IMG/VR virus record: IMGVR_UViG_2529292906_000018
Origin: a virus
Taxonomy: Duplodnaviria; Heunggongvirae; Uroviricota; Caudoviricetes
DNA: 36,198 bases
Strand: one strand, 5' to 3'
This document shows, in pieces, positions 9,044-29,086 of this stretch. Numbering within the stretch: the first letter of the stretch is position 1; each line of letters opens with the position of its first letter. Both the position numbers and the translations under genes were made by a program. The notes under the pieces were generated by a model, which saw nothing but the letters and a program-made list of their open reading frames with translations, was not told the DNA's origin and searched no databases.

Positions 9044-9046
9044 GTA

Positions 9047-15834: not shown

Positions 15835-16034
15835 TGAAAGTGAAGGCACTGGAAAGCGACACCGTGGATTCGCTCTGTTTCCGGTACTACGGCACGACGC
15901 AGGGCGTCACCGAAAAGGTGCTGGATGCAAACCCCGGACTCTGTCAGCAGGTATTTCTGGACGCCGGGCAGGAAGTGGAGATGCCGGAGCCGGAGAAGAA
16001 GAAACGAGAAATGATTCAGTTGTGGGGGGAGTAG
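15834..16034 (+). CDS. X: tail protein X (P2 gpX-like, LysM-type)
   Basis: MKVKALESDTVDSLCFRYYGTTQGVTEKVLDANPGL resembles P2 gpX (MKTFALQGDTLDAICVRYYGRTEG...) as recalled; ATG overlaps L stop. Confidence 0.75.
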   Translation: MKVKALESDTVDSLCFRYYGTTQGVTEKVLDANPGLCQQVFLDAGQEVEMPEPEKKKREMIQLWGE

Positions 16035-16036
16035 CA

Positions 16037-16360: not shown

Positions 16361-16749
16361 GCAACACATTTAAATTCAGCAGCCGGAGCGAAAAGAATTT
16401 GCAGGGCGTAAATCCTGATCTGGTGAAAGTGACCAGACGGGCACTGGAAATTTCGGAAGTGGATTTTGGTATCACCGAAGGGTTGCGCAGCCGTTACCGC
16501 CAGAAGCAACTTGTGGCCACAGGTAAGAGCCAGACCATGAACAGCCGCCACCTTACGGGACATGCCGTGGATGTTGTGGCTTATATCGGCAGCCAGGTGT
16601 CATGGGAATGGCCGCTGTACGAAAAAATCGCAGCAGCATTCAGACAGGCCAGCCGGGAACTGAATATTCCGGTGGAATGGGGCGGCGACTGGAAGACCCT
16701 GAAAGACGGACCGCATTTTCAGTTACCACACGGAGCCTATCCGGCATGA
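16357..16749 (+). CDS. endolysin, peptidase M15-type (zinc D-Ala-D-Ala carboxypeptidase/L-Ala-D-Glu peptidase fold)
   Basis: SRHLTGHAVDVV and GPHFQL motifs typical of the M15 family; AAGGAG SD; lysis cassette position. Confidence 0.7.
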   Translation: MSNTFKFSSRSEKNLQGVNPDLVKVTRRALEISEVDFGITEGLRSRYRQKQLVATGKSQTMNSRHLTGHAVDVVAYIGSQVSWEWPLYEKIAAAFRQASRELNIPVEWGGDWKTLKDGPHFQLPHGAYPA

Positions 16750-17153
16750 AGCTCTGGCCCACGCTGGGCGTCGCTTTCCTTCTGATTGCCGCATGGGGAA
16801 CATCCATGCGTCTGTCGTGGTCGCTGGGCCGGGAGAACGCCAGAAACGAAGCGCAGGCCAGCGCCCTGAAAAGCACCGCCGACCCCCTGAATATCATCAG
16901 CGCCGGGGTACAGGATATGCAGCAGGTGCTGGCGCAACTCCGCGTGGAAAATCAACAGAGAAATCAGGACGGAGAGGCCAGACGTGAACAGCTACGCAAC
17001 GATATTGCAAAAGATGAATGCGCCCACGCTTTGCCTGACGCTCGTTTTACTGACAGTTTGCGCAGGCACGCAGAACGCGCCACGGCCAGCGCCGTCAGTC
17101 CGGCTTATACCGCAGACGCTGACCATACCAGTAATGCCTCCCCCCTTCCCTGA
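16746..17153 (+). CDS. i-spanin (Rz/LysB-like)
   Basis: ATG 16746 overlaps endolysin stop; N-terminal TM (LWPTLGVAFLLIAAWG) then charged, coiled-coil-like region. Confidence 0.55.
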   Translation: MKLWPTLGVAFLLIAAWGTSMRLSWSLGRENARNEAQASALKSTADPLNIISAGVQDMQQVLAQLRVENQQRNQDGEARREQLRNDIAKDECAHALPDARFTDSLRRHAERATASAVSPAYTADADHTSNASPLP

Positions 17154-17304
17154 TACTCCCACATGGGGAAATCTCGGTATATGGGGCGACCGCCTTCTGG
17201 ATGCACTGGAAACCTGTAACGCGGATAAACGGGCCATTGAATTACTGGAACAGCGCAGGCTGCAACGACTGAACAACGAGGACAACAACCATGCTGAAAA
17301 CTGA
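17014..17304 (+). CDS. putative o-spanin (Rz1/LysC-like), embedded in +1 frame of the i-spanin gene and extending beyond it
   Basis: MNAPTLCLTLVLLTVCAG signal-like N-terminus then proline-rich PRPAPSVRLIPQTLTIPVMPPPFPDTP; canonical lipobox not clear. Confidence 0.4.
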   Translation: MNAPTLCLTLVLLTVCAGTQNAPRPAPSVRLIPQTLTIPVMPPPFPDTPTWGNLGIWGDRLLDALETCNADKRAIELLEQRRLQRLNNEDNNHAEN

Positions 17305-17758
17305 TTCCCTGCGTGAAGCCATGACCCGTTCATGCCGATGGTGTCAGGCCAACCCGGAAAAATTCACCATTTTCGTGGAGAGCGGCAACATTGAAACGAC
17401 CGGAGAAACGCCCTCGTTTGTTTACCGCTATCAGATGGTGATGTTTGTCATGGATTACGCCGGGGAGCTGGACGACCTCACGCTGCCGCTGCTGGCGTGG
17501 TTATCCGAAAATCAGCCACAGTTGTTGCTCAATCCGGAGCGTAATCAGGACATCAAATTTTCTGCCGTTATCAATGACGATGACAGCGCCGATCTCCTGT
17601 TTACGCTCCCCCTGCGGGAACGCGTTCGCATCACGCGCAGCAGTCAGGGCACGCCGCAGGCAGAACACCTGCCGGAGCCAAAACCCCGCCTGCCATCTTC
17701 CGAAGGCGACTGGTCGCATGTATTCCAGGATGTGACGTGGGGTGAAAGCGATGGATAA
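17291..17758 (+). CDS. R: tail completion protein (P2 gpR-like)
   Basis: MLKTDSLREAMTRS... resembles P2 gpR (MLKPDSLRRAL...) as recalled; 155 aa. Confidence 0.8.
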   Translation: MLKTDSLREAMTRSCRWCQANPEKFTIFVESGNIETTGETPSFVYRYQMVMFVMDYAGELDDLTLPLLAWLSENQPQLLLNPERNQDIKFSAVINDDDSADLLFTLPLRERVRITRSSQGTPQAEHLPEPKPRLPSSEGDWSHVFQDVTWGESDG

Positions 17759-18386
17759 GGCATTCACCCGCGCGGATGAAACCTTTGAGGCCATCCGCGA
17801 CAGCCTGAATCAGCAGGCCATCAATAACATCACCAGAAAGCTGGCACAGGATTTACGCCGCGCCCAGCAGGCGCGTATCCGGTCACAGAAAGCGCCGGAC
17901 GGGACCGCGTGGACATCACGCAGACGCCGCGTAACCCGGATACAGGAACGCATTCGCTTTATCTGGAATAACGAAGCACGCACGCTGAAAAACTGGCATC
18001 ACGACACGGGGAAATACGGGCGAACCATTACCGGGTGGGATGAGGATAAAAACAGCATCCGTACGTTTTACCGGGATGACATCGACCGTTTTCTGGAAAT
18101 ACGCACCCGGCGCATCAACCAGGACAGCACAAAGCGCGTCCCCATGTTCGTAAAACTGCGCACCGCCCGCTACCTGAAAGCCCGTGCAGATGCTTCCGGT
18201 GTGACGGTGGGTTACAGCGGCGTGGCCGCACGTATTGCCCGCGTTCATCAGTTCGGTGAGCGCGATCAGGTTGCGCCGGGCATTTTCACCGATTACCCGG
18301 TACGTGAGCTGTTGGGCATCAGTCAGGCAGATGAACGCCTGATTTATAACACGGTGCTGGGCCGGATTGCGGAGGCTGTACGGTGA
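17751..18386 (+). CDS. S: tail completion/virion morphogenesis protein (P2 gpS-like)
   Basis: ATG 17751 overlaps R stop; position between R and V. Confidence 0.7.
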   Translation: MDKAFTRADETFEAIRDSLNQQAINNITRKLAQDLRRAQQARIRSQKAPDGTAWTSRRRRVTRIQERIRFIWNNEARTLKNWHHDTGKYGRTITGWDEDKNSIRTFYRDDIDRFLEIRTRRINQDSTKRVPMFVKLRTARYLKARADASGVTVGYSGVAARIARVHQFGERDQVAPGIFTDYPVRELLGISQADERLIYNTVLGRIAEAVR

Positions 18387-18964
18387 GCGCAGAACTCATG
18401 CGACTGCTGAGCAATATCATCCGCACCGGGATCATCTCTGAAGTTGATGAGAAGTCCTGGCGCGTGCGCGTTCGCAGCGGCGAACTGGAAACAGGCTGGC
18501 TGCGCTGGAACACCACGCGCGCGGGAGCCTTCAATGTGTGGCTGCCGCCATCACCAGGCGAACAGGTGGTAATTGCCTGCATTGGCGGCAACCCGGAAAC
18601 CGCCATGATAATTGGCAGCCTGTGGAGTGATGCCAGTCCGGCCCCCGGCAAAAGCCTGAAAGAAATCGTGATCAGCGCGCCGGACGGCGCGGTGTTCCGC
18701 TACGACGCGGACGCAGGCGCACTGAGCGCCAGCGGCATGAAAACAGCCACCCTGCAGGCATCCGTCAGCGTGACACTGAATACGCCCGTCGTGGAATGCA
18801 CAGACCTTCTGAGAACGGCGACGCTTGACGTCACAAAAGGGGGAAAGATGAGCGGCAATATCACGCACAGCGGCGGCAATTTCACCTCAAACGGCATCAC
18901 AGTGCATACGCATAAACACGGTGGCGTTAAAGGTGGCAGCGATTCGACAGGAGGCCCGCAGTGA
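18383..18964 (+). CDS. V: baseplate spike/assembly protein V (P2 gpV-like)
   Basis: ...NIIRTGIISEVD... and C-terminal ...HTHKHGGVKGG... match the gpV pattern as recalled. Confidence 0.85.
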   Translation: MSAELMRLLSNIIRTGIISEVDEKSWRVRVRSGELETGWLRWNTTRAGAFNVWLPPSPGEQVVIACIGGNPETAMIIGSLWSDASPAPGKSLKEIVISAPDGAVFRYDADAGALSASGMKTATLQASVSVTLNTPVVECTDLLRTATLDVTKGGKMSGNITHSGGNFTSNGITVHTHKHGGVKGGSDSTGGPQ

Positions 18965-19311
18965 CAACCCGCTACACAGGAATGAACCCGGACGGAACGG
19001 GAAACCTGAACGATATGGAGCACCTGAAACAGTCAGTCAGGGACATCCTGATCACCCCGCTGGCAAGCCGGGTTATGCGACGGGAATATGGCAGCCTTGT
19101 GCCTGATTTGATTGACGAACCCATGAATAACACAACTCGTCTGCAATGCATGAGTGCTGCCGTGATTGCGCTGACACGATGGGAACCCCGCATTGCCCTG
19201 GACGCCATCGACGTTGTCTGGAAGGCAGGAGGCCGCGCCGGGGTGACGCTGTCGGGCACTGTCATGCAGACCATGCAGAATGTTGAATTAACCATCACGC
19301 TGAGAGAGTAA
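18961..19311 (+). CDS. W: baseplate wedge protein W (GP25-like)
   Basis: VTTRYTGMNPDG...RVMRREYGSL... resembles P2 gpW (MTARYLGMNRSDG...RVMRRDYGSL) as recalled. Confidence 0.85.
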   Translation: MTTRYTGMNPDGTGNLNDMEHLKQSVRDILITPLASRVMRREYGSLVPDLIDEPMNNTTRLQCMSAAVIALTRWEPRIALDAIDVVWKAGGRAGVTLSGTVMQTMQNVELTITLRE

Positions 19312-19314
19312 ATC

Positions 19315-20211
19315 ATGCCTGCTGTTGACCTTTCCCAGTTACCGGAACCCGCCATCATCGCGGAGCCTGATTTTGAGGCAATTCTGGCTGACACAAAGGC
19401 CATGATGATTGCGTCCTATCCTGCCGAACAGCGTGAAGCCGTCTCCGCCGCGCTGGAGCTGGAATCAGAACCCCTGAACGTTATCGCTCAAACCATGTCT
19501 TTTCGTGAAATGCTGTTACGCCAGCGGGTTAACGAGGGCGCACGCGCCTGCATGTTAAGCCACGGTTCAGGGACAAACCTGGACAACCTCGCGGGCAATA
19601 TGAACACAAAGCGCCTGGTTATCACTCCGGCAACGGATACCACCGACGCGGTGATGGAGAGCGACACCTCGCTGAGATTGCGGGCGCAACGGGCGTATGA
19701 CGGCCTGAGTGTTGCTGGCCCGTCAGGTGCATACGAGTATTTTGCACGCAGCGCCAGCGGTCTGGTGCGTGATGCGCGGGCCATCAGCCCGTCTCCGGCC
19801 TGTGTGACGGTTTCCATCCTGTCCACTGAAGGCGACGGCACAGCAACGGAGGCGTTGCTTAATACCGTTCGCGCCGTTCTGAATGCAGAGGATACCCGCC
19901 CGGTGGCCGACCGCCTGACCGTACAGAGCGCCAGAATCGTGACATGGCGGCTGAATGCAAAACTGTACTTTTACCCCGGCCCGGAATCCGAACCTATTCT
20001 GGCCGCGGCTGAATCGTCGTTCAGGAAGTGGCTGGCTGAGCAGGGGCTTATCGGTCAGGACGTGGCGTTGTCCGCCATTGCTGCCGCACTGCATGTGCAC
20101 GGTGTGCAACGCGTGGAGATAATCGAACCCACACAGAATATGGCCATCAGCGACATACAGGCGGCGCGCTGTGAGTCATTCACCATCAGCGAAGGTGGAC
20201 GCAATGAGTAA
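19315..20211 (+). CDS. J: baseplate protein J (P2 gpJ-like)
   Basis: MPAVDLSQLPEPAIIAEPDFEAILAD... and ...PVADRLTVQSA... match gpJ as recalled. Confidence 0.85.
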   Translation: MPAVDLSQLPEPAIIAEPDFEAILADTKAMMIASYPAEQREAVSAALELESEPLNVIAQTMSFREMLLRQRVNEGARACMLSHGSGTNLDNLAGNMNTKRLVITPATDTTDAVMESDTSLRLRAQRAYDGLSVAGPSGAYEYFARSASGLVRDARAISPSPACVTVSILSTEGDGTATEALLNTVRAVLNAEDTRPVADRLTVQSARIVTWRLNAKLYFYPGPESEPILAAAESSFRKWLAEQGLIGQDVALSAIAAALHVHGVQRVEIIEPTQNMAISDIQAARCESFTISEGGRNE

Positions 20212-20812
20212 TTCGTTGTTACCACCATCAGCCAGCAATTTCATGCGTTGTGCCGAAGCCGTCGGAACACGCATTACAGACATTCCGGTAGACCTCAACA
20301 CGCTGTGGTCGCCGGACACCTGCCCGGTGCATCTGCTGCCTTATCTCGCCTGGGCGTTTTCCGTTGACCGCTGGGATCGCAACTGGCCGGAAGAGACAAA
20401 GCGACAGGTGATTCGTGATGCATGGCTGATACACCGACACAAAGGGACCATCAGCGCACTGCGAAGAGCCGTGGAGCCTCTCGGCTACCTGATTGAAGTA
20501 AAGGAGTGGTGGCAACTCAACGAGGAGCCGGGAACATTTCGCATTGTTGTCGGAGTACTTGATCAGGGCATCACCGATGAAATGTATCAGGAACTTGAGC
20601 GCCTTATTGCGGATGCAAAACCAGTAAGTCGCCATCTGACGGGGCTGGCGATCAGCCTGAGTGTGAACGGAAAGATTTTCGTTGGTACGGGATGCTATCA
20701 CGGCGATGCCCTGACGGTTTATCCCTACACCCCGGAGTCCATTATTGTCGAAGGGGATTATTTCCCTGCCCCAGCCATTCATTTAATTGATAATCTGAGA
20801 GTAAACGCATGA
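20204..20812 (+). CDS. I: baseplate protein I (P2 gpI-like)
   Basis: ATG 20204 with AAGGTGGA SD, overlapping J stop; within ORF 20171..20812. Confidence 0.75.
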   Translation: MSNSLLPPSASNFMRCAEAVGTRITDIPVDLNTLWSPDTCPVHLLPYLAWAFSVDRWDRNWPEETKRQVIRDAWLIHRHKGTISALRRAVEPLGYLIEVKEWWQLNEEPGTFRIVVGVLDQGITDEMYQELERLIADAKPVSRHLTGLAISLSVNGKIFVGTGCYHGDALTVYPYTPESIIVEGDYFPAPAIHLIDNLRVNA

Positions 20813-22404
20813 CAGTGAAATACTACGCCATTCTGACTAATCAGGGCGCGGCACGACTGGCTAACGCGACGATGCTCGGCAGTAAGCTGAATCTGACGCA
20901 AATGGCCGTTGGTGATGCAAATGGTGTGTTACCAACACCAGACCCTGCACAAACAAAACTGATTAACCAGAAACGCATTGCACCGCTGAATCTTCTGAGT
21001 GTTGACCCTAACAATCAGAGCCAGATTATTGCGGAGCAAATCATCCCTGAAAACGAGGGAGGATTCTGGATCCGTGAGATTGGTCTTTATGATGATGAAG
21101 GTGTACTCATTGCGGTGGCAAACTGCCCGGAAACGTACAAACCGCAGTTGCAGGAAGGCAGTGGACGCACCCAGACTATCCGCATGATTCTGGTTGTCAC
21201 GAACACCGAAGCCATCACGCTGAAAATCGACCCGTCTGTGGTTCTGGCAACCCGCAAATATGTGGATGATAAAATATCAGAGCACGAACAGTCACGACGT
21301 CACCCGGACGCCTCGCTGACCGTAAAAGGTTTTACTCAGTTAAGCAGTGCAATTAACAGTGAATCAGAAACACTGGCCGCAACACCGAAAGCGGTTAAGG
21401 CTGCATATGACCTGGCTAACGAGAAATATACCGCCCAGAACGCCACCACTACACAAAAAGGGATTGTTCAGCTCAGTAGCGCCACGAACAGCACGTCTGA
21501 AACACTGGCAGCGACACCAAAAGCTGTTAAGGCGGTAATGGATGAAACGAACAAGAAAGCACCATTAAACAGCCCGGCACTGACCGGAACGCCAACAACA
21601 CCAACAGCGCCACAGGGGACTAATAGTACCCAGATCGCAAGCACGGCTTTCGTTATGGCCGCGATTGCCGCACTTGTAGATTCGTCACCTGATGCACTGA
21701 ACACGCTGAACGAACTGGCTGCGGCGCTGGGCAATGACCCGAATTTTGCGACCACCATGACTAACGCGCTTGCGGGTAAGCAACCGAAGGATGCCACCCT
21801 GACGGCGCTGGCGGAGCTTGCTACATCAGCAGATAAACTCCCATATTTTACAGGGGCAGATCGTGCCGCGTTAACCGCGTTGACAAGTGTTGGACGTGCC
21901 ATTCTTGGTAAAACCAGCACTCAGGGCGTTCTTGATTACCTTGGTTTAGGGGAAGGCTCTGCACTGCCCGTTGGTGTACCTGTTCCATGGCCCTCAGCCA
22001 CGCCGCCAACGGGGTGGCTGAAATGTAACGGCGCAGCATTTTCTTCTGAAATGTATCCCAGACTGGCAATGGCTTACCCCACCAATAAATTACCAGACTT
22101 ACGCGGTGAATTTATCCGTGGCTGGGATGATGGGCGCGGGGTGGATGCCGGAAGGGGCATCTTAAGCATGCAGGGGTGGTTAACAGGAAGTCATTATCAT
22201 AATATTCGGTCATGGGACGCGTGGGATAACACGGTACTGGTGCCAAATGACAAAGGAGGGGATAGTTTGTTGTCGACAGATAACGCCGTCCGGCAAGGTG
22301 CAATTAACGGTAGATTTACCAGTCAATACAGAACGGAATCCTCAGGGGGGAATGAAACCCGCCCACGCAATATTGCCTTCAATTATATTGTGAGAACCGC
22401 ATAA
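20809..22404 (+). CDS. H: tail fibre protein H (constant N-terminal part plus currently expressed variable C-terminal cassette)
   Basis: 531 aa; internal repeats (TQLSSAINSESETLAATPKAVKA / VQLSSATNSTSETLAATPKAVKA); C-terminal third shares a junction motif (GLGEGSALPVGVPVPWPSATPPTGWLKCNGAAF) and a terminal motif (ETRPRNIAFNYIVR) with the downstream inverted cassettes. Confidence 0.85.
   Translation: MTVKYYAILTNQGAARLANATMLGSKLNLTQMAVGDANGVLPTPDPAQTKLINQKRIAPLNLLSVDPNNQSQIIAEQIIPENEGGFWIREIGLYDDEGVLIAVANCPETYKPQLQEGSGRTQTIRMILVVTNTEAITLKIDPSVVLATRKYVDDKISEHEQSRRHPDASLTVKGFTQLSSAINSESETLAATPKAVKAAYDLANEKYTAQNATTTQKGIVQLSSATNSTSETLAATPKAVKAVMDETNKKAPLNSPALTGTPTTPTAPQGTNSTQIASTAFVMAAIAALVDSSPDALNTLNELAAALGNDPNFATTMTNALAGKQPKDATLTALAELATSADKLPYFTGADRAALTALTSVGRAILGKTSTQGVLDYLGLGEGSALPVGVPVPWPSATPPTGWLKCNGAAFSSEMYPRLAMAYPTNKLPDLRGEFIRGWDDGRGVDAGRGILSMQGWLTGSHYHNIRSWDAWDNTVLVPNDKGGDSLLSTDNAVRQGAINGRFTSQYRTESSGGNETRPRNIAFNYIVRTA
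21929..21954 (+). other. invertase crossover site inside H (hix/gix-like)
   Basis: TTCTTGATTACCTTGGTTTAGGGGAA resembles the Hin-family 26-bp site (hixL TTCTTGAAAACCAAGGTTTTTGATAA as recalled); lies at the constant/variable junction. Confidence 0.55.
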
Positions 22405-23015
22405 TGAATAACGCGATATTAAATGATGACCTTATTGCCGTACAGGCAGGAAACATCGTCGTTTATAACTATGATGGTGAGACACGGGAATATATTTCCG
22501 AATCAACTGAATATCTTGCTGTGGGTGTCGGTATTCCGGCAAATTCCTGTTTAGATGCCCCGGGCGCACATAAAGCGGGCTATGCTATCCGCCGTTCGGA
22601 GAATTTAAGTTCATGGGAGTATGCGCCAGACCATCGTGGTGAAACCGTCTATAGCACTGACACGGGAAACACCGAAGAAATCACGGCGCTGGGTGACTAC
22701 CCGAAAAATACAACCACTATCGCCCCGTTAACACCATACGATAAATGGGATGGTGAAAAATGGGTGACAGATACTGAGGCACAACATCGTGCCGCAGTAG
22801 AAGCGGCAGAAACCAAGCGCCAGTCACTGGCTGATGCGGCAATGGCTTCCATAAGTCTGATTCAGTTGAAGTTGCAGGCCGGGCGGAAGTTGACGCAGGC
22901 AGAAACCACCCGGCTTAATGCCGTGCTGGATTATATAGACGCGCTGAACGCAATGGATATAAACATGACACCAGATATCAACTTGCCGGAAATACCACTG
23001 GCAGCAGCCAGTTGA
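22404..23015 (+). CDS. G: tail fibre assembly chaperone (P2 gpG-like)
   Basis: 203 aa ORF immediately after H with ATG overlapping the H stop. Confidence 0.75.
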   Translation: MNNAILNDDLIAVQAGNIVVYNYDGETREYISESTEYLAVGVGIPANSCLDAPGAHKAGYAIRRSENLSSWEYAPDHRGETVYSTDTGNTEEITALGDYPKNTTTIAPLTPYDKWDGEKWVTDTEAQHRAAVEAAETKRQSLADAAMASISLIQLKLQAGRKLTQAETTRLNAVLDYIDALNAMDINMTPDINLPEIPLAAAS

Positions 23016-23021
23016 ATATAA

Positions 23022-23468
23022 CTAAGCCGCCCTCACGATATAGTTAAATGCAATATTGCGGGGGCGGGTTTCACTACCACCTGTGTTACCAATACTTCCT
23101 CGTGAATGAAGCGTTGGTGATGGAATCAAACTCCCTCCTGTATTTGTGGCATCAAGCCCCCTGCCTTGTGTATATGTTTTTTTGAAAATCGTAGCCAACT
23201 CCCATTCATCTTTTGTGTCATATCCATCGTTAGCTACAACAATATGGCGGTGTTTTTCCAACATCCCGTTTTGAATGCTCAATAAAGCGCGTGCCGCATC
23301 AATTCCTCGCCCATCATCCCAGCCACGGATAAATTCGCCCCGTAAATCCGGTAATTTATTGGTGGGGTAGGCCTTTGCCAGATTGGGGTACATTTCAGAA
23401 GAAAATGCTGCGCCGTTACATTTCAGCCACCCCGTTGGCAGCGTGGCTGAGGGCCATGGAACGGGCAC
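23022..23468 (-). CDS. silent alternative tail-fibre C-terminal cassette 2 (promoterless, invertible)
   Basis: Begins with the H junction motif (V)PVPWPSATLPTGWLKCNGAAF and ends ETRPRNIAFNYIVRAA; listed start is an in-frame GTG, the frame continues into the crossover site. Confidence 0.6.
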   Translation of the reverse strand: MPVPWPSATLPTGWLKCNGAAFSSEMYPNLAKAYPTNKLPDLRGEFIRGWDDGRGIDAARALLSIQNGMLEKHRHIVVANDGYDTKDEWELATIFKKTYTQGRGLDATNTGGSLIPSPTLHSRGSIGNTGGSETRPRNIAFNYIVRAA

Positions 23469-23489
23469 ACCAACGGGCAGTGCAGAACC

Positions 23490-23515
23490 TTCTCCTAAAC
23501 CAACGTTTTCATGCG
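23490..23515 (-). other. invertase crossover site 2 (inverted relative to the H site)
   Basis: TTCTCCTAAACCAACGTTTTCATGCG; reverse complement shares GTTGGTTTAGGAGAA with the H-site half. Confidence 0.5.
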
Positions 23516-23982
23516 GCTCTTACGATGTAATTAAATGCAACGTTGCGAGGGCGAGTTTCTGTACCTACATTTCCACTAATTTCACCAAACCGTTTTACAT
23601 TACGAGAGCTAATGGCTCGTAGTGAGGAAGGCACCTTTAAACCGGGTTCGTCTGTTTTAACTATTCCCCCGTCCCCGTATGTAGCCAGTATTCCAGGGTT
23701 TACTCCTTCCCGTGTACTTCCCGCGGCAAGTCCATCCCCGGTCCATAATTCCATATAGTGTGCATGATCCAAAATTGTGTGTGGCTGCCAATTAAGCAAA
23801 GCGCGGCCAGCATCCACCCCGCGCCCATCATCCCAGCCACGAATAAATTCACCCCGTAAATCCGGTAATTTATTGGTGGGGTAGGCCTTTGCCAGATTGG
23901 GGTACATTTCAGAAGAAAATGCTGCGCCGTTACATTTCAGCCACCCCGTTGGCAGCGTGGCTGAGGACCATGGAACGGGCAC
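23509..23982 (-). CDS. silent alternative tail-fibre C-terminal cassette 3
   Basis: Same conserved N-terminal junction and C-terminal ETRPRNVAFNYIVRAA motif, different central segment. Confidence 0.6.
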   Translation of the reverse strand: MPVPWSSATLPTGWLKCNGAAFSSEMYPNLAKAYPTNKLPDLRGEFIRGWDDGRGVDAGRALLNWQPHTILDHAHYMELWTGDGLAAGSTREGVNPGILATYGDGGIVKTDEPGLKVPSSLRAISSRNVKRFGEISGNVGTETRPRNVAFNYIVRAA

Positions 23983-24003
23983 ACCAACGGGCAGCGCCGA
24001 GCC

Positions 24004-24029
24004 TTCTCCTAAACCAACGTTTTCATGCG
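24004..24029 (-). other. invertase crossover site 3
   Basis: Identical 26-mer TTCTCCTAAACCAACGTTTTCATGCG. Confidence 0.5.
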
Positions 24030-24232
24030 GCTCTTACGATGTAATTGAATGCAACGTTGCGGGGGCGTGTTTCTGCTGTGCCGACAATACTGGTACTCAG
24101 TCCTGTCGCTGTTCGTTTGTTATTTTTATTCCCTTCGATAAGACAGTTGTAATCGTCATTACCAATTAACGAGTTGGTGGCATCAATACTGTCCGGGGAC
24201 AAGGCATTAGTTGTGGAACTTAAAGTCAGCAT
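24023..24232 (-). CDS. alternative tail-fibre cassette 4, distal segment (after -1 frame change)
   Basis: Ends AETRPRNVAFNYIVRAA; frame is open upstream to 24298; joins the 24256..24612 ORF if the A6 run at plus 24289-24294 is read one base longer. Confidence 0.5.
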   Translation of the reverse strand: MLTLSSTTNALSPDSIDATNSLIGNDDYNCLIEGNKNNKRTATGLSTSIVGTAETRPRNVAFNYIVRAA

Positions 24233-24255
24233 CTCGTCTGAACTTGGAAGATTTT

Positions 24256-24612
24256 TTAATGGGGTTTCATTACGTGAAATACCCGCATAAAAAAGGACTC
24301 ATGCCTGTGCGCTTCAAAGGAGTCATCCTGAAGACTTAGCAAGGCACGCCCAGCATCCAAGCCACGTCCATCATCCCAGCCACGGATAAATTCACCCCGT
24401 AGATCCGGTAATTTATTCGCGGGGTAAGCCTGTGCCAGTTTGGGGTAATCTTCAGAAGAAAATGCTGCGCCGTTACATTTCAGCCAGCCCGTTGGCGGTG
24501 TAGCTGAGGGCCACGGAACGGGTACACCAACGGGCAACGCAGAGCCTTCCCCCAAACCAACGTTTTCGTCTTTATCCCTACCTATACCAACTATGTATTT
24601 TTCACGAAACAA
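24256..24612 (-). CDS. alternative tail-fibre cassette 4, proximal segment
   Basis: Contains GLGEGSALPVGVPVPWPSATPPTGWLKCNGAAFSSEDYPKLAQAYPANKLPDLRGEFIRGWDDGRG, then runs out of frame. Confidence 0.5.
   Translation of the reverse strand: MFREKYIVGIGRDKDENVGLGEGSALPVGVPVPWPSATPPTGWLKCNGAAFSSEDYPKLAQAYPANKLPDLRGEFIRGWDDGRGLDAGRALLSLQDDSFEAHRHESFFMRVFHVMKPH
24547..24572 (-). other. invertase crossover site 4, adjacent to the invertase gene
   Basis: TTCCCCCAAACCAACGTTTTCGTCTT, a variant of sites 2 and 3. Confidence 0.45.
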
Positions 24613-24626
24613 AGAGGATGTTTTTT

Positions 24627-25226
24627 ATGCAAATTGGCTATATTCGTGTGTCAACAAATGACCAGAACACGGATTTACAACGCAATGCACTGAACTGCGC
24701 AGGATGTGAACTGATTTTTGAAGATAAAATCAGCGGAACGAAATCAGCCAGACCGGGATTGAAAAAACTGCTCAGAACGCTATCAGAAGGAGATACGCTG
24801 GTTGTCTGGAAGCTGGACAGACTGGGCAGAAGTATGAAACACCTGATCACGCTTATTGAGGAATTGCGGGAAAAAGGTGTTAATTTCCGTAGTCTGACGG
24901 ACAGCATTGACACATCAACACCCATGGGGCGTTTCTTTTTTCACGTCATGGGGGCTTTAGCCGAAATGGAACGTGAATTAATTGTAGAACGTACACTGGC
25001 CGGGCTGGCAGCAGCACGCGCACAAGGACGCATTGGCGGACGTCGCCCGAAGTTGACAAAAGAACAACACGAGCAAATAGCGAGGCTGATTAAAAACGGT
25101 CATGACAGGAAACAACTGGCGATCATTTACGACATCGGCATATCGACGATTTATCGTTATCACCCTGTAGGCGATATACAGGCTGAAGAAACAACCAGGC
25201 AGACTCAGGAAAATGAAAACCGCTAA
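24627..25226 (+). CDS. serine DNA invertase (Hin/Gin/Cin/Pin family)
   Basis: MQIGYIRVSTNDQNTDLQRNAL...GDTLVVWKLDRLGRSMKHL...FRSLTDSIDTSTPMGRFFFHVMGALAEMERELI is near-identical in pattern to Gin/Hin as recalled; ATG 24627 within ORF 24618..25226. Confidence 0.9.
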   Translation: MQIGYIRVSTNDQNTDLQRNALNCAGCELIFEDKISGTKSARPGLKKLLRTLSEGDTLVVWKLDRLGRSMKHLITLIEELREKGVNFRSLTDSIDTSTPMGRFFFHVMGALAEMERELIVERTLAGLAAARAQGRIGGRRPKLTKEQHEQIARLIKNGHDRKQLAIIYDIGISTIYRYHPVGDIQAEETTRQTQENENR

Positions 25227-25245
25227 TCTGACCATTAGCGGTTTT
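25216..25245. terminator. bidirectional rho-independent terminator between invertase and U
   Basis: AAAACCGCTAAT-ctgacc-ATTAGCGGTTTT hairpin with T tracts on both strands. Confidence 0.6.
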
Positions 25246-25252: not shown

Positions 25253-25747
25253 TCAAAACAGCCCTTTAACGGAGCTGGCCGCGCTGTTAAGGGATGATGT
25301 GACCTTATCTTTGAAGCCGGACAGCATATCACTGAACGATGAGGATTGCAGGCGCTCCCGCAAATCCTCATCACAGCGTTCAAGAGTCAGTGAAAATTCT
25401 ATCTTTTTCGCCTTACCGTAGCGATCAAACTCGGAGCGGGTCGTATTCGTTCCGGTCAGGACATACATGCCGTAAATCTGCCCGACACCATCAATCAGAG
25501 GCCAGGGGCGTCCTGTATATGCCTGCGTGGTCAGCAACGAAAGCGACACTTCGCCACCTGTAATTTCAGGATAAAGCACACCAGAAAGAACGATGCGATC
25601 ATCGCCTGCCCCGATATACTGCCAGCTTGCTGAACGGTTAACGCGTTCATTTTTCACATGCCGCCAGCTTTTGTTTTGCTGTAACTGCTGATGCGGCAAC
25701 GTGCGCAGCTCAAAAACAAACATGCCGTAGATCATCATCATGGCCAT
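25253..25747 (-). CDS. U: tail protein U (P2 gpU-like)
   Basis: 164 aa ORF downstream of the tape measure gene; N-terminus MAMMMIYGMFVFELRTLP resembles gpU as recalled. Confidence 0.75.
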   Translation of the reverse strand: MAMMMIYGMFVFELRTLPHQQLQQNKSWRHVKNERVNRSASWQYIGAGDDRIVLSGVLYPEITGGEVSLSLLTTQAYTGRPWPLIDGVGQIYGMYVLTGTNTTRSEFDRYGKAKKIEFSLTLERCDEDLRERLQSSSFSDMLSGFKDKVTSSLNSAASSVKGLF

Positions 25748-25753: not shown

Positions 25754-28570
25754 TCAATCTTTATCGTAAAAACTGCCACGCCCGGCACGGGCGCGCCGTT
25801 CCATTTCTGCCCTGACCATTTCACCGACCAGTTTCGCCAGTTCGCGGGGATTCTGCGTAACAACGTTATGCAGATGAACATGAATTTCACCACCAAATCC
25901 GGAGGCAACAGGCTCCCGGTTACGGGAAGTTACAGGAACTGATGCCACTGGAGATCGTATGGCCTCCGCCACCGGGTGGGAGCTGGCCGCAACAACAGGG
26001 ACCAGCGCCGGAGGCAGCGGAGCCGGGACCACGGGGGTGATATTAATTGCGGGGGCAGGCTTACTGACCTGTGCAATCTTCCGCTCCTGCCACTCCCCAC
26101 GAACAGCAAGTGCGCGGGGCAAGTTCTTAAAGACAATATCGCCGGGGCCAATGCGTTTTTTCGTCTCATCAACCAGCTTACCTGTGTTATCAGCAATTTT
26201 GCTGAGTCTGCGTAGCGTCCCAGTATTGCTGTCTGTGAGCGGTTTGTTGTCTTTGGGTTTATCACCTCCGGTGCCATTGCCATTTTCCACAGGCTTCGGC
26301 GGATTGATTTTCGCCAGGTCCCCCTGAAGTAAGGCAACCTTGTCCTGAAGAATGGCCGCACGCTGTGCGTCTTCGATTTTCTTGCGCGCCCTTTCCGCTT
26401 CATCCGGAAGGACGCCAAGTTTTTCAAGTATCCACGCCAGCGTATCCAGTAGCATTTTTGCAGGTGTCAGAACAAGTTGTAACGCACCGCCAAGAACGTT
26501 ACCGAATACCTCGCCAGCACTGGTACATTTATCCAGCGTTTCCTTGCTGGACTCCATCGGTGACAACAGCGATTTAAACCAGTTAAACACCTGGCTGATC
26601 CCGCTTCCGATTGCGTCAAAAACAGGACCAAACCGTTCAAAGGTTTCGCGCAACGGGGTCAGCCTTTCCATAATCCCGCTGAACACCCCGGCAAAAAATG
26701 CCCTGATGGGATCCCAGTATTTCCAGATGAGAACGGCAGCTCCGGCAAGCGCAGCCACGATAAGACCGACCGGACTGAACAACGCCCCGATAGCGCCCCC
26801 CAGTAACGAAACGGAACCCGTCACCATTCCCCATAGTGCTGGCAGAACCCTGACAGCATTCATTGATCCGGTCAGGAGGGAAAAACCAAGACGCAGTTTT
26901 GCCAGCGGACCAGCAAGCACACCAATAGCCAGCGACAACGAGCCAACCGTTGCAGTCATTGCCAGCAGTGCACCGCCTGCAATCAGTAGCTGGCGCGTCA
27001 GTGCGGGATGGGCCTGCGCCAGCGCCGTCACCTTTGATACCACACGCGTGAGCCACTGCGTGACAGAACGCAGCGGACCGTCAATCAGATCTGCAATGCG
27101 GATGCGCAACCCTTCCCATGCACTGCTGAGTGATTTCAGATCGCCGTCAAGGTTGTTGGCCATAACCTTTGCCGTGCGTTCAGCCTCACCGCGCGCGCCT
27201 TCAAGTTCTTTTCTCAGTTTGGGTAAGGAGCCGTCACCTGCCGCATCAACGAGGGCCATAAATGATGTGAAAGCCTCTTCTCCGGCAATGTCCTTAAAGA
27301 ACGATACCCGGTCAACTTCCCCGTATTTGCGGGTAGCTTTATAAAGGTCAGCCAGCACATCCTCCATCGGGCGCATTTTGCCCCCGGCATCCGAGACAGA
27401 CACGCCAAGCTCTTTCAGCGCCTCTGCTGCCGCCTTTGGCGGTGATGCCAGACGAGCCAGGCTGGCACGCATTGCCGTACCAGCATCACTCCCCCTGATA
27501 CCCATATTCGCCAGCACGCCCGCCATCGCTGCGGCCTGCTCCAGCGATATTCCCAGCTTACCCGCCACCGGACCTGCATATTTCATGGTTTCACCCAGTG
27601 CGCGAAGGTCAGTGTTGGTACGGGTAAACGCTGCGGTGAGTGTGTCGCCGACCCGGTCCATCTGGTCAGCAGAAAGACCGAACTGCGTCAGAATATTTGA
27701 GCCAATATCCGCCGTCTCACCGAGGTCCATACCGCCAGCCGTTGCCATGCTCAGTACGCCAGGGAGCGCAGCCTGAATGGCCTGTGGTGTGAAGCCAGCC
27801 ATTGCAAGAAATGCCTGCCCACTGGCGGCATCGCCTGCGGTGAACTGCGTTTCAGAGCCAAGTTTTAACGCCTGCTCACGCAGCGCCTTAAACTGCGGGC
27901 TGTTTTTGTCGATTCGCGTCAGTGCCTGAACGCGGGACATCTCTTTCCCGAACCCGATCGCAGGCTGCAAAAAACGCCCGGCAGCATAGCCGCCCGCCGC
28001 TGCCGCACCAATTGCCAGCGCACCACCTGTTTTCAGTTTTCCCGCTGTTTCCTGCGCGCGCGAATACCGCTCACGCGCCCGCGTTACACGCGCAAGCGCC
28101 TGCCGTTCGCGTTCAAGCTGGTTGTTGTACTGTTCGGTGCGTCTGATGGCCTGCTGGATGGTGTTATCGCTGCCTGTCAGGGAAATGCCGTGGCGTTTCA
28201 GCTCTCCGCCAAGCTCCCGCATTTTCTGAATTTCCCGTGTGCGCGATTCATTCAGGCGTTCAAGCCGGGTGCTTAACTGCTGCATCAGCTTTTGTTGTTT
28301 TTCGCTGAGCACTGTACCCGTGCGTTGTAACTGATTAAGGGCGTTAAGCTGGCGTCGTGCTTTCACGATACCCGCATCCGCTTTACTGACAGCGTCGCGG
28401 GCGCGCTCAAATGAACGCGCCTGACGCTCGAGATTTTTGATCGCCCCCTGCGTTCGCTGGATGGAGTCACCAAACTGCCCCATCAGGCGGCGGGCGTTTT
28501 CGGCAGGCCGGGTCAGCCTGTCAACGGCGCTGAAAGCGACCCGGATGTCAAGAGTCTTCATTATCTGCAT
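25754..28570 (-). CDS. T: tail tape measure protein (P2 gpT-like)
   Basis: About 940 aa, Ala/Gly-rich coiled-coil protein with hydrophobic central region; start ambiguous (ATG 28570, ATG 28561 or GTG 28597). Confidence 0.85.
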   Translation of the reverse strand: MQIMKTLDIRVAFSAVDRLTRPAENARRLMGQFGDSIQRTQGAIKNLERQARSFERARDAVSKADAGIVKARRQLNALNQLQRTGTVLSEKQQKLMQQLSTRLERLNESRTREIQKMRELGGELKRHGISLTGSDNTIQQAIRRTEQYNNQLERERQALARVTRARERYSRAQETAGKLKTGGALAIGAAAAGGYAAGRFLQPAIGFGKEMSRVQALTRIDKNSPQFKALREQALKLGSETQFTAGDAASGQAFLAMAGFTPQAIQAALPGVLSMATAGGMDLGETADIGSNILTQFGLSADQMDRVGDTLTAAFTRTNTDLRALGETMKYAGPVAGKLGISLEQAAAMAGVLANMGIRGSDAGTAMRASLARLASPPKAAAEALKELGVSVSDAGGKMRPMEDVLADLYKATRKYGEVDRVSFFKDIAGEEAFTSFMALVDAAGDGSLPKLRKELEGARGEAERTAKVMANNLDGDLKSLSSAWEGLRIRIADLIDGPLRSVTQWLTRVVSKVTALAQAHPALTRQLLIAGGALLAMTATVGSLSLAIGVLAGPLAKLRLGFSLLTGSMNAVRVLPALWGMVTGSVSLLGGAIGALFSPVGLIVAALAGAAVLIWKYWDPIRAFFAGVFSGIMERLTPLRETFERFGPVFDAIGSGISQVFNWFKSLLSPMESSKETLDKCTSAGEVFGNVLGGALQLVLTPAKMLLDTLAWILEKLGVLPDEAERARKKIEDAQRAAILQDKVALLQGDLAKINPPKPVENGNGTGGDKPKDNKPLTDSNTGTLRRLSKIADNTGKLVDETKKRIGPGDIVFKNLPRALAVRGEWQERKIAQVSKPAPAINITPVVPAPLPPALVPVVAASSHPVAEAIRSPVASVPVTSRNREPVASGFGGEIHVHLHNVVTQNPRELAKLVGEMVRAEMERRARAGRGSFYDKD

Positions 28571-29086
28571 TCCCGCTGCGAAGTGCCGCCCGCTCACGCC
28601 AGCTAACCACTTCGCCGGGCGTCATCATGAAGATTTCGGCGGGCGACCAGTTAAAAATGGCGGCAATATCCGCCACCAGATCTTCGATGTGCTCAAAGCA
28701 CACCAGGGTGATTACGCTGCCGTCTCCTGCACGCTCTTCGCGCCAGAGTCTGGCTCGCTCATAAAATTTACAGCCACAGCGCACAACTGAATAAAATCGC
28801 GTGACGACATTTTTTTAATCATCACTTCATCCAGTCGTGGCGAGGTCACGCGAGGCAACAGCGTGAACATGGTATCCGCTTTCAGATTCAGCACATCAGA
28901 CAGCGACAGACCACGCAGGGATCCCGCCTGCTCAATAGCCCCGGTGATTTCCACATATGTGATTTTTTCGGCACCACGCTCAATTGGCCGGGAAAGTTTT
29001 ACACCACGTTCGACAGCCATATCCTCACCTGCCGTCACATCATCCGCTACGGTGTTATTCCGGGTTTCAGTATCGATGTCTTTCAT
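28548..29086 (-). CDS. E+E': E+E' fusion chaperone produced by programmed -1 translational frameshift
   Basis: The -1 frame opens immediately after a TAA embedded in an A7 run (plus 28810-28816) inside E and runs to 28548; second candidate slippery heptamer A_AAT_TTT at plus 28763-28769; this architecture is conserved in P2-type and lambda-type tails. Confidence 0.65.
28712..29086 (-). CDS. E: tail assembly chaperone E (P2 gpE-like)
   Basis: 124 aa ORF with AAGGAGA SD between the tube gene and the tape measure gene. Confidence 0.75.
   Translation of the reverse strand: MKDIDTETRNNTVADDVTAGEDMAVERGVKLSRPIERGAEKITYVEITGAIEQAGSLRGLSLSDVLNLKADTMFTLLPRVTSPRLDEVMIKKMSSRDFIQLCAVAVNFMSEPDSGAKSVQETAA

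What the first reader, a model, noticed from the sequence alone, without database searches (positions are those of the whole stretch)
21929..25245. Multi-cassette tail-fibre inversion system: one expressed H C-terminus, three silent inverted cassettes, four hix/gix-like crossover sites and a Hin/Gin-family invertase
H and three minus-strand ORFs share a conserved junction peptide (GLGEGSALPVGVPVPWPSATPPTGWLKCNGAAF...) and a conserved C-terminal peptide (ETRPRN(I/V)AFNYIVR) but differ in the central 50-80 residues. A 26-bp hix-like sequence lies at each junction, one orientation in H (21929-21954) and the opposite at 23490-23515, 24004-24029 and 24547-24572, next to a serine invertase gene. This resembles a multiple-inversion (Min-like) host-range switch rather than a simple two-state G-segment. 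The silent cassettes lack their own chaperone genes, and inversion from the H site would also flip G, so chaperone usage is unclear.
Basis: partly seen in the sequence, partly recalled or inferred. Interest (0 to 1): 0.55.

Follow-up and report, generated by a model that had tools for sequence, protein, structure and literature searches.

The report
Shuffling tail-fibre tips in a prophage
This is a Min/Gin-type DNA-inversion switch in a P2-family E. coli prophage that swaps four alternative receptor-binding tips onto one tail-fibre gene; it is a well-known kind of system, and a three-site version of this same locus has already been shown experimentally to flip.

Summary
Four 26-bp hix/gix-type sites lie exactly where stated: one forward inside H, three reversed. 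Each precedes a 220-240-nt conserved stretch that opens a tail-collar cassette. An intact Gin-family serine invertase sits next to them.

Relatives show that the system works.
- Two assemblies of EPEC E2348/69 differ by an exact inversion between the outer site cores (0 mismatches in 6,874 nt).
- Two other strains differ by an exact s1 x s2 inversion. The crossover there is confined to 7 bp (TTGGTTT) that include the core TT.
- Goldberg et al. 2014 showed by sequencing and PCR that all four isomers of the three-site E2348/69 locus coexist. That locus is orthologous to this one.

The same prophage family carries 2 to 7 sites. A P1/p15B-like plasmid carries 9, with a 95%-identical invertase.

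The architecture is one double-ended unit [A-G-B'] plus single-ended cassettes, which allows 2(n-1)! isomers: 12 here and 240 for six sites, the number cited for Min of p15B.

Caveats:
- Cassette D is frameshifted at a T6 run, one of several homopolymer frameshifts in the window.
- The single chaperone gene G is antisense in half the isomers, and this remains unexplained.

Verdict: a real but ordinary new member of a known kind.

The parts
20809..21940 (+). Constant 5' part of tail-fibre gene H, up to the left half of site s1 (N-terminal tail-fibre domain and fibre repeats)
   Evidence: Pfam Phage_tail_fib 1-150 and Phage_fiber_2 repeats. It is 99% identical in all related loci whichever cassette follows it.
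21929..21954 (+). Crossover site s1: TTCTTGATTACC TT GGTTTAGGGGAA. It lies inside H and encodes ...DYLGLGE...
   Evidence: The left half is invariant in 19 of the 20 related prophage loci and in the plasmid locus L024; L019 has TTCTCGCATACC.
21941..22404 (+). Cassette A, the currently expressed C-terminus of H (154 residues from the core; collar domain with an HYH motif)
   Evidence: Pfam Collar. PDB matches to a short tail fibre (9cuy, 1e-18) and the T4 gp37 tip (2xgf), including the C-terminal NIAFNYIVR. Alignment.
22404..23015 (+). G, the only tail-fibre assembly (Tfa) chaperone gene. Its ATG overlaps the stop of cassette A (TAATG).
   Evidence: Pfam Caudo_TAP, 1e-30; sequence. It is always linked to A and B in relatives.
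23022..23503 (-). Silent cassette B (160 residues, HRH motif), convergent with G. It forms the other end of the central unit [A G B'].
   Evidence: It is found fused to H in strain ETEC6335 (L020).
23490..23515 (-). Crossover site s2: CGCATGAAAACG TT GGTTTAGGAGAA. Its left half holds the TGA stop of cassette C.
23509..24017 (-). Silent cassette C (169 residues, HAH motif)
   Evidence: Full-length copies occur in 160 E. coli genomes, and there are 438 match places on plasmid records.
24004..24029 (-). Crossover site s3, identical to s2. Its left half holds the stop of cassette D.
24023..24560 (-). Silent cassette D, frameshifted as sequenced (T6 at 24289-24294 where relatives have T7). It is 179 residues when corrected.
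   Evidence: The intact form is fused to H in L001 and silent in L009, L011, L020 and L021.
24547..24572 (-). Crossover site s4: AAGACGAAAACG TT GGTTTGGGGGAA, the invertase-proximal boundary of the invertible region
   Evidence: The core lies 67 nt from the invertase ATG, the same spacing as gixR to gin in Mu.
24627..25226 (+). Serine DNA invertase (Gin/Cin/Min family), outside the invertible region
   Evidence: Resolvase and HTH_7 domains. E = 3e-91 to the Gin structure 4m6f. The protein is identical to the invertases of L001, L009 and L020, and differs by 1 residue from that of E2348/69.
24645..24716 (+). Stretch homologous to the annotated Fis-dependent enhancer of P1 cin (cin nt 19-90), inside the 5' end of the invertase gene
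   Evidence: P1 annotation. Ungapped alignment, 79% nt identity to P1 and 74% to Mu. Synonymous-codon identity is higher here than in the rest of the gene, but numbers are small.
25216..25245 (.). 12-bp-stem hairpin flanked by A and T runs, between the invertase stop and the convergent gpU stop. Probably a bidirectional terminator.

Best explanation
This is a Min-type multiple DNA-inversion host-range switch of a P2-family (Peduoviridae-like) E. coli prophage.

How it works. The serine invertase (24627-25226) binds the four 26-bp sites. Presumably, with host Fis on the enhancer in its own 5' coding region, it pairs any two sites of opposite orientation. It cuts at the central TT and inverts the DNA between them. 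Because s1 lies in frame inside H, at the codons for ...YLGLGE..., each inversion that involves s1 joins the constant 373-residue shaft of H to a different distal domain of about 150-180 residues. Each distal domain is built as a conserved collar, an HxH motif, a variable receptor-binding insert, and the conserved C-terminal strand ETRPRN(I/V)AFNYIVR.

Permitted arrangements. The region consists of one double-ended unit [A> G> <B] and two single-ended units [<C] and [<D]. That layout allows 12 arrangements, all reachable by inversions.

Chaperone. The single chaperone G most likely serves all cassettes through their shared collar and C-terminal parts. It is co-oriented with H in 6 of the 12 isomers (A, C or D expressed) and antisense in the other 6, including every isomer that expresses B.

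Shown versus inferred. The anatomy is shown. Site-core-precise inversions in near-identical loci are shown. An invertase protein identical to those loci is shown. Fis and enhancer dependence, the host-range consequences, and how or whether G is supplied in G-antisense isomers are inferred.
For: Anatomy:
- Sites, repeats and cassettes are as described.
- The invertase matches Gin structures at E = 3e-91 and has the catalytic serine.
- The sites match the published Mu/P1/e14/p15B/S. boydii consensus.

Activity in relatives:
- E2348/69 assemblies CP059840.2 and LT903847.1 differ by an exact inversion between the outer cores, with 0 mismatches in 6,874 nt.
- Br_178_kylling and ETEC6335 differ by an exact s1 x s2 inversion, with 0 mismatches in 1,683 nt. 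The crossover is confined to TTGGTTT.
- Goldberg et al. 2014 found four coexisting variants. Their coordinates 1891695-1893703 and 1892127-1893703 in NC_011601.1 are those of the orthologous sites.
- Strains L009, L011 and L020 carry the same six cassettes in three different orders and orientations.
- In all 20 related loci, '+' sites precede the A-G-B unit and '-' sites follow it, as the proposed layout requires.

Invertase and geometry:
- The invertase protein is identical to those of L001, L009 and L020, and differs by one residue from that of E2348/69.
- The enhancer homologue and the 67-nt spacing from site to ATG are conserved with P1 and Mu.

Isomer counts: 12 for this window by exhaustive search. 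The formula gives 4 for 3 sites, matching Goldberg, and 240 for 6 sites, matching the number cited for Min of p15B.
Against: - There is no read-level or experimental evidence for this particular window. Only one isomer is seen here.
- Cassette D is frameshifted as sequenced, so at most three tips are functional unless that is a sequencing error.
- The window carries further homopolymer frameshifts in gpA, the large terminase and gpD. The prophage may be defective, or the assembly error-prone.
- The enhancer is inferred from homology within a strongly conserved coding region, so the synonymous-site signal is weak.
- No promoter for G independent of the H operon was found. A hairpin terminator separates the region from the convergent tail operon. 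Isomers with G antisense therefore have no evident chaperone supply.
Confidence: 0.9

Rival explanations
1. Fossil array. The cassettes and sites are relics that no longer recombine in this prophage, and the arrangement is frozen as H-A.
For: Cassette D is frameshifted. gpA, the large terminase and gpD also carry homopolymer frameshifts, which would fit a decaying prophage. The window shows a single arrangement, the 'ground' order also seen in L009 and L010.
Against: The invertase ORF is intact. Its protein is identical to those of loci found in different isomeric states, and differs by one residue from the experimentally active E2348/69 enzyme. All four sites keep the TT core and both half-sites. 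All the frameshifts are single-base changes in runs of 5-7 identical bases, which is the usual signature of sequencing error. Invertases of this family can also act in trans (PMC4134206 discussion).
Confidence: 0.06
2. Inversions at this locus are produced by general (RecA) homologous recombination between the 220-240-nt inverted repeats, not by the invertase acting at the 26-bp sites.
For: The repeats are long enough (219-240 nt at 84-91%) to serve as RecA substrates. In the E2348/69 pair the crossover can only be placed within 37 bp.
Against: In the L009/L020 pair the exchange lies within the 7 bp TTGGTTT that contain the core, at the extreme edge of the repeat. In all 20 related loci the H-side and stop-codon-side left halves stay with their flanks, while the right halves travel with the cassettes. 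Every copy is accompanied by a conserved invertase gene (frameshifted in L019), with Mu-like site-to-gene spacing. Flipping in E2348/69 reaches tens of percent within a single-colony culture.
Confidence: 0.03
3. Chaperone sub-hypothesis 1. Isomers with G antisense (all H-B isomers and half of the H-C and H-D isomers) yield virions with unassembled or inactive fibres. On this view G orientation is a cost of the design, and only A, C and D are productive tips.
For: G is the only Tfa gene in the region, and its ATG overlaps the stop of A. No sigma-70-like promoter was found upstream of G on either strand, and a terminator hairpin blocks read-through from the convergent tail operon.
Against: Cassette B is conserved and intact in every multi-site locus examined (160 residues in the 15 loci that carry it, L001-L005, L007-L011, L015, L020, L021, L024 and the window), which argues that it is used. 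G-antisense arrangements are as common as G-sense ones among complete genomes (about 25 versus 21), although lysogens are not under selection for fibre assembly.
Confidence: 0.35
4. Chaperone sub-hypothesis 2. G is supplied whatever its orientation. Possible routes are a weak internal or late promoter, leaky read-through from the convergent FI-FII-E-T-U operon, or Tfa proteins of co-resident prophages acting in trans. On this view all four tips can be productive.
For: The tail operon (gpU 25253-25747, tape measure 25754-28597) converges on the region, and the intervening hairpin has only 4 G-C pairs in 12. Tfa proteins are modular, with a fibre-binding N-terminal domain and a conserved C-terminal trimerisation domain (PMC9608196, citing North et al. 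2019). E. coli genomes often carry several such prophages: the conserved cassette sequence gives up to 28 match places per genome. The same single-chaperone layout is kept on P1/p15B-like plasmids with up to 9 sites.
Against: No promoter was detected, and read-through would have to cross 600 nt of antisense invertase gene plus up to three cassettes. There are no expression data.
Confidence: 0.45

Closest known systems
Min multiple-inversion system of plasmid (phage-plasmid) p15B of E. coli 15T- (Sandmeier et al. 1990, 1992; Iida et al. 1990)
   Same: Both have a Din-family serine invertase beside a cluster of more than two 26-bp crossover sites, and several alternative 3' ends for one tail-fibre gene. 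The layout found here gives 2(n-1)! isomers, that is 240 for six sites, the number cited for Min. A P1/p15B-like plasmid (pKOr024_2) carries the same module: an identical H-side half-site, an invertase 94.7% identical, a Tfa 96% identical, and cassettes A, B, C and D among its nine.
   Different: The host replicon here is a chromosomal P2-family prophage, not a P1-related plasmid. There are four sites rather than six, giving 12 isomers rather than 240. A direct sequence comparison with p15B itself (X62121) could not be made, because that record is not in the available collections.
The 'shufflon-like' invertible tail-fibre locus of the P2-like prophage of EPEC E2348/69 (Goldberg et al. 2014, Genome Med 6:112)
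   Same: This is the orthologous locus. The upstream flank tested (window 14000-20808) is 98% identical, the H-side half-site is the same, the same [A G B'] unit is present, and the invertase differs by one residue. Coexistence of all isomers was shown experimentally by paired-end sequencing and PCR.
   Different: E2348/69 has three sites, four isomers and three tips, and its third cassette is a different one (called F in my cassette map). The window has four sites, 12 isomers, and cassettes C and D instead.
Gin/G segment of phage Mu and Cin/C segment of phage P1
   Same: The invertases are 73-74% identical. The 26-bp site form is the same, the invertase sits outside the segment, and the enhancer lies inside the 5' end of the invertase gene. 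The spacing from site core to start codon is the same 67 nt as in Mu.
   Different: Mu and P1 have two sites, two states and a mirror-image segment with a dedicated chaperone for each tip (U and U'). Here there are four sites, short cassettes of 0.5 kb with no chaperone of their own, and one shared chaperone. Some close relatives of this prophage do carry the classical two-chaperone layout at the same position (L013, L014, L016, L018, L019 and a degraded copy in L017).
R64 shufflon (Rci / pilV)
   Same: Both are clustered multiple-inversion systems that select alternative C-termini of an adhesin-like protein.
   Different: The R64 shufflon uses a tyrosine recombinase (Rci), sfx sites and a pilus gene. 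It is a mechanistic analogue only, not a relative.

Membership tests
Hin/Gin/Cin/Pin/Min (Din) family of serine DNA invertase systems | Small serine recombinase with an N-terminal catalytic domain (active-site serine near residue 9-10) and a C-terminal HTH | tested here: met
   Pfam Resolvase 1.5e-51 and HTH_7 1.4e-12. E = 3e-91 to Gin structures 4m6f and 3uj3, with YIRVSTNDQ aligned to Gin's Ser9. 73-74% identity to Gin and Cin.
Hin/Gin/Cin/Pin/Min (Din) family of serine DNA invertase systems | 26-bp crossover sites made of two imperfectly symmetrical 12-bp halves around a 2-bp core, with the same core in recombining partners | tested here: met
   Four sites, all with core TT when read in coding sense. 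They agree with the consensus reproduced in PMC4134206 Table 3.
Hin/Gin/Cin/Pin/Min (Din) family of serine DNA invertase systems | Fis-bound recombinational enhancer in cis, inside the 5' part of the invertase gene in Gin and Cin | tested here: inconclusive
   Window 24645-24716 aligns without gaps to the annotated P1 enhancer at 79% nt identity. Synonymous-codon identity is 0.45-0.50 there against 0.33-0.34 elsewhere, but with only 20-22 codons. Fis binding cannot be tested with these tools.
Hin/Gin/Cin/Pin/Min (Din) family of serine DNA invertase systems | Inversion actually occurs, with exchange at the site core | tested here: met
   Not tested for this window's own DNA. Met for near-identical loci: exact inversions with 0 mismatches, crossover confined to 7 bp including the core, and published WGS and PCR evidence for the orthologue.
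Min-type multiple inversion system (p15B) | More than two crossover sites bounding overlapping invertible segments | tested here: met
   Four sites bound three segments (1,561, 514 and 543 nt between cores). 12 isomers are reachable.
Min-type multiple inversion system (p15B) | Alternative 3' coding segments are joined in frame to one constant tail-fibre 5' part | tested here: met
   In-silico H-B and H-C fusions read through to ETRPRN(I/V)AFNYIVRAA. Natural H-B, H-D and H-F fusions are seen in L020, L001 and L004. D is frameshifted in this window.
Min-type multiple inversion system (p15B) | Invertase orthologous to Min of p15B | not testable with these tools
   The p15B sequence (X62121) is not in the collections. 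The nearest proxy is a P1/p15B-like plasmid invertase at 94.7% identity. About 141 mostly 90-100-kb plasmids carry the gene at about 91% nt identity.
Tfa (Caudo_TAP) tail-fibre assembly chaperones | Conserved C-terminal Tfa domain, encoded immediately downstream of the fibre gene it serves | tested here: met
   PF02413 at 1.1e-30 over residues 78-198, with the start overlapping the stop of cassette A. Unlike Mu and P1, there is only one such gene for four cassettes.

The most novel reading that the evidence does not exclude
The single chaperone gene inside the central invertible unit may be a second, orientation-dependent layer of control rather than an oversight. With G antisense the prophage would make fibre-less or chaperone-free particles. 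Alternatively, tip B would fold without G, or would use a Tfa borrowed from another prophage. Either way the switch would govern not only which tip is made but whether fibres are assembled at all. The same layout is kept from 2-site to 9-site versions on both prophages and phage-plasmids, so it is conserved. No available result says how G is supplied.
Probability: 0.15. Interest if true: 0.5.

Novelty: new member of a known kind. Interest (0 to 1): 0.22.

Why it matters
It matters mainly as annotation and as a caution.

- The 'phage tail protein' ORFs on the minus strand are not genes. They are silent alternative 3' ends of H, and the H product of any one assembly is only one of several.
- Assemblies of such loci can be chimeric or carry artefactual duplications. 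One related locus shows cassette D on both sides of the central unit.
- For host-range prediction or phage engineering, the locus offers a natural set of interchangeable receptor-binding tips about 0.5 kb long, with conserved junctions.
- The one open biological point is how a single Tfa chaperone serves cassettes when it is on the wrong strand in half the isomers. This is directly testable in the already characterised E2348/69 prophage.

Tried and rejected
1. Read-through from the convergent tail operon as the source of G when it is flipped. A 12-bp-stem hairpin with flanking A and T runs lies between the invertase and gpU stops. The idea is kept only as a weak possibility.

2. A sigma-70 promoter for G or for the silent cassettes. 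The scan found 2 promoter-like sites in 4.1 kb, fewer than the 5.1 expected from shuffles, and none was suitably placed.

3. A synonymous-site test for the enhancer. The result goes in the expected direction, but with only 20-22 codons it is not significant.

4. Naming the invertase through the large protein database. The closest clusters (94-98% identical) are all called 'recombinase family protein' or 'DNA invertase', and none is named Min.

5. Reading the primary Min papers and Johnson's review. These are not held in the library. The figure of 240 isomers is taken from a secondary citation.

6. Counting H-A and H-B fusions with junction queries. The tool joins nearby pieces, so the counts (21 and 25 genomes) measure the orientation of the A-G-B unit near H rather than strict fusions.

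7. PADLOC and Pfam searches on the cargo ORFs at 32.1-35.6 kb found no hits.

Full report
**1. What is in the sequence**

The window is a P2-family prophage. It carries:
- an integrase (596-1720, minus strand)
- replication protein gpA
- portal, terminase, scaffold and P2-type capsid genes
- the baseplate genes V, W, J and I
- the tail-fibre gene H
- a convergent gpU / tape measure / E / tube / sheath operon on the minus strand

H (20809-22404) has the N-terminal tail-fibre domain, fibre repeats and a C-terminal tail-collar domain. It is followed by:
- G (22404-23015), a Caudo_TAP tail-fibre assembly protein whose ATG overlaps H's stop as TAATG
- three minus-strand collar-domain ORFs: B (23022-23468 as an ORF), C (23509-23982) and D, which is split into 24256-24612 and 24023-24232
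- a plus-strand serine recombinase (24627-25226)

**2.

Read in the coding direction of the cassette each one precedes, they are:
- s1: TTCTTGATTACC-TT-GGTTTAGGGGAA
- s2 and s3: CGCATGAAAACG-TT-GGTTTAGGAGAA
- s4: AAGACGAAAACG-TT-GGTTTGGGGGAA

A 17-mer covering the core and right half, with up to one mismatch allowed, occurs four times and nowhere else. The expectation from shuffles is 0.00.

The sites head inverted repeats of 219-240 nt at 84-91% complementarity. These encode the shared roughly 75-residue start of each cassette. The cassettes also share an HxH motif and the last 16 residues, ETRPRN(I/V)AFNYIVR(A/T)A. They differ in a middle part of roughly 60-90 residues.

The left halves of s2 and s3 contain the stop codon of the neighbouring cassette, so the array is packed with no spare DNA.

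At the sequence level, cassette A matches a solved short tail fibre over its whole length (9cuy, 1e-18). It also matches the T4 gp37 tip (2xgf) at both ends, including the terminal NIAFNYIVR. From what is known of the gp37 tip, the two conserved ends form the collar and the variable middle forms the distal receptor-binding part. That last point is inference.

**3. One correction**

Cassette D is not intact as sequenced. Compared with the 97.8%-identical D cassette of strain 160-11H1, the window has T6 instead of T7 at 24289-24294 (minus-strand reading). A fusion to H would therefore stop after ...HESFFMRVFHVMKPH. Adding one T restores a 179-residue cassette with the conserved C-terminus.

Comparison with the E2348/69 prophage shows similar one-base differences in A or T runs at 4738 (gpA), 11766 (large terminase) and 31722 (gpD). 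The terminase and gpD differences visibly split those genes into two ORFs, and the gpA ORF is 771 codons against 940 in E2348/69. The pattern points to homopolymer sequencing error, or else to a decaying prophage. I cannot tell which.

**4. The invertase**

- It is 199 residues long, with Resolvase and HTH_7 domains.
- It matches the Gin crystal structures at E = 3e-91 over residues 1-185, with the catalytic serine in YIRVSTNDQ.
- It is 73% identical to Gin and 74% to Cin.
- The P1 record annotates the Cin enhancer at nucleotides 19-90 of cin.
- The corresponding stretch of this gene (window 24645-24716) aligns without gaps at 79% identity to P1. It shares two invariant blocks with Mu and P1, GT(A/G)TCAACAAATGA and GCAGGATGTGA.
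- Identical-codon usage at conserved residues is higher there (0.45-0.63) than in the rest of the catalytic domain (0.32-0.34). The numbers are small, so I rate the enhancer as probable, not shown.
- The distance from the s4 core to the start codon is 67 nt, the same as from gixR to gin in Mu.

**5. Evidence that such loci really invert**

The flanking baseplate region (window 14000-20808) is covered at 80% or more in 986 of 5,426 complete E. coli genomes, mostly at 95-99% identity. I fetched 20 related prophage loci.

(a) Same strain, different assemblies. E2348/69 assembly CP059840.2 reads H-A, G>, <B, <F. NC_011601.1, LT827011.1 and LT903847.1 read H-F, B>, <G, <A. Inverting CP059840.2 in silico between the cores of its outer sites reproduces LT903847.1 with 0 mismatches in 6,874 nt.

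(b) Crossover position. Br_178_kylling (L009) and ETEC6335 (L020) differ by an exact s1 x s2 inversion, with 0 mismatches in 1,683 nt. The two sites differ at the base before the core and at the eighth base after it. This confines the crossover to TTGGTTT, which includes the core TT. It argues for site-specific exchange and against general recombination within the 240-nt repeats.

(c) Published experiment. Goldberg et al. 2014 (PMC4272514) reported two overlapping inversions, three inverted repeats and four variants for a P2-like prophage of E2348/69, all coexisting by sequencing and PCR. Their Table S1 coordinates (NC_011601.1 1891695-1893703 and 1892127-1893703) start at the s1 core of the locus I fetched: H starts at 1890563 and the s1 core lies 1,132 nt further on.

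(d) Shuffled orders. Cassette maps show the same repertoire in different orders:

| Locus | Arrangement |
|---|---|
| L009 | A> B< C< D< H< F< |
| L020 | B> A< C< D< F< H< |
| L011 | F> A> B< D< C< H< |
| L021 | F> D> B> A< C< |
| window | A> B< C< D< |

The window keeps the first four cassettes of L009 in the same order.

(e) Same enzyme. The window's invertase protein is identical to those of L001, L009 and L020. It differs from the E2348/69 enzyme only by E197K in the C-terminal tail.

**6. Layout and isomers**

Each site joins a 'left' half to a 'right' half. The left half comes from the H side, the stop-codon side or the invertase side. The right half is the start of a cassette.

The unit [A> G> <B] has a cassette start at both ends. 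Every other unit has one cassette start and one stop-side end. It follows that flipped single cassettes can only lie between H and the A-G-B unit, and unflipped ones only after it. All 20 related loci and the window obey this rule.

An exhaustive search over inversions between oppositely oriented sites gives 12 reachable isomers for the window:

| Tip expressed | Isomers | G orientation |
|---|---|---|
| A | 2 | sense |
| B | 2 | antisense |
| C | 4 | half sense, half antisense |
| D | 4 | half sense, half antisense |

The general count is 2(n-1)!. That gives 4 for three sites, as Goldberg et al. found. It gives 240 for six sites, the number quoted for Min of p15B (PMC2481393, citing Sandmeier et al. 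1990).

Site numbers in this prophage family run from 2 to 7. A 92.7-kb P1/p15B-like plasmid, pKOr024_2, has 9 sites. It has the identical H-side half-site, an invertase 94.7% identical and a Tfa 96% identical to the window's. About 141 plasmids, mostly of 90-100 kb, carry the invertase and proximal site at about 91% nt identity.

The module is therefore shared between P2-family prophages and P1/p15B-like phage-plasmids. Calling it Min-type is justified by its architecture, although p15B's own sequence could not be compared.

**7. The chaperone question**

What I can add:
- A second inversion puts G back in sense behind C or D, but never behind B.
- The orientation of the A-G-B unit is roughly balanced among complete genomes, about 21 with A in sense near H and 25 with B in sense near H. 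In E2348/69 cultures the small inversion is at 49% +/- 37. Lysogens therefore show no bias.
- I found no promoter for G, and a hairpin terminator (25216-25245) separates the region from the convergent tail operon.
- B is intact in every multi-site locus that carries it, which suggests it is used.
- Tfa proteins are described as having a fibre-binding N-terminal domain and a conserved C-terminal trimerisation domain (PMC9608196, citing North et al. 2019). All the cassettes share their collar and C-terminus, so one G could plausibly serve all of them. That is inference.

How G is supplied when it is antisense remains open. I give two sub-hypotheses with roughly equal weight.

**8. Comparison and novelty**

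The system works like Gin and Cin and is built like Min. Its three-site orthologue has been demonstrated experimentally. Collar-domain tail-fibre switching at 26-bp sites in E. coli prophages has also been documented from PacBio assemblies (PMC4134206).

Some close relatives of this prophage carry the classical two-site, two-chaperone segment at the same s1 half-site instead.

The four-site arrangement here is one ordinary member of a family that is common in E. coli. I rate it a new member of a known kind, of low interest apart from the unresolved chaperone logic.

Noticed in passing
window 24289-24294 (minus-strand T6): Cassette D is frameshifted: T6 here where strain 160-11H1 has T7. An H-D fusion would be truncated unless this is a sequencing error.
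   Followed up: yes
window 4738, 11766, 15319, 31722: These are one-base length differences in A or T runs relative to the E2348/69 prophage. The ones at 11766 and 31722 split the large terminase (10574-11767 and 11689-12324) and gpD (30864-31736 and 31733-32104) into two ORFs. The one at 4738 lies in gpA (771-codon ORF here against 940 in E2348/69). The pattern suggests homopolymer errors in the assembly, or a defective prophage.
   Followed up: partly
L001 (NZ_AP031375.1) 2635-3176 and 4740-5281: Cassette D is present twice, in inverted orientation on both sides of the A-G-B unit, and the copies are identical from the core onwards. Inversions alone cannot produce this. It may be an assembly artefact from a mixed population, of the kind the EC958 paper warns about, or a real duplication.
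   Followed up: partly
L013, L014, L016-L019 (related prophages): The same prophage backbone and the same H-side half-site are present, except that L019 has a variant half-site, TTCTCGCATACC. The invertible region, however, is a classical two-site segment with two convergent tail-fibre assembly genes and gp53-like tips. The whole switch module is exchangeable.
   Followed up: partly
L024 (plasmid pKOr024_2, NZ_CP147095.1) 2513-7583: This P1/p15B-like 92.7-kb plasmid carries nine sites and nine cassettes, including A, B, C and D, with one chaperone and a 94.7%-identical invertase. By the same layout rule it would have 80,640 possible isomers.
   Followed up: partly
window 32105-35583: A 3.5-kb stretch between gpD and the ogr-like region is absent from the E2348/69 prophage. 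It holds two long ORFs (32353-33300 and 33177-35471) with no Pfam or PADLOC match. It is possibly accessory cargo of unknown function.
   Followed up: partly
window 7262-8221 and 8563-9070: A ParM-like gene sits between gpA and the portal gene. E2348/69 additionally has an AAA ATPase and an S8 peptidase at this position, and the window lacks them.
   Followed up: no
window 25216-25245: A 12-bp-stem hairpin, AAAACCGCTAAT...ATTAGCGGTTTT, overlaps the invertase stop and faces the gpU stop. It is probably a bidirectional terminator between convergent operons.
   Followed up: partly
L006 (19AR1321) and L015 (F163): These relatives have damaged parts. In L006 the H-fused cassette is truncated after 74 residues. 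In L015 cassette A is annotated as frameshifted. Individual cassettes do decay in some lineages.
   Followed up: no
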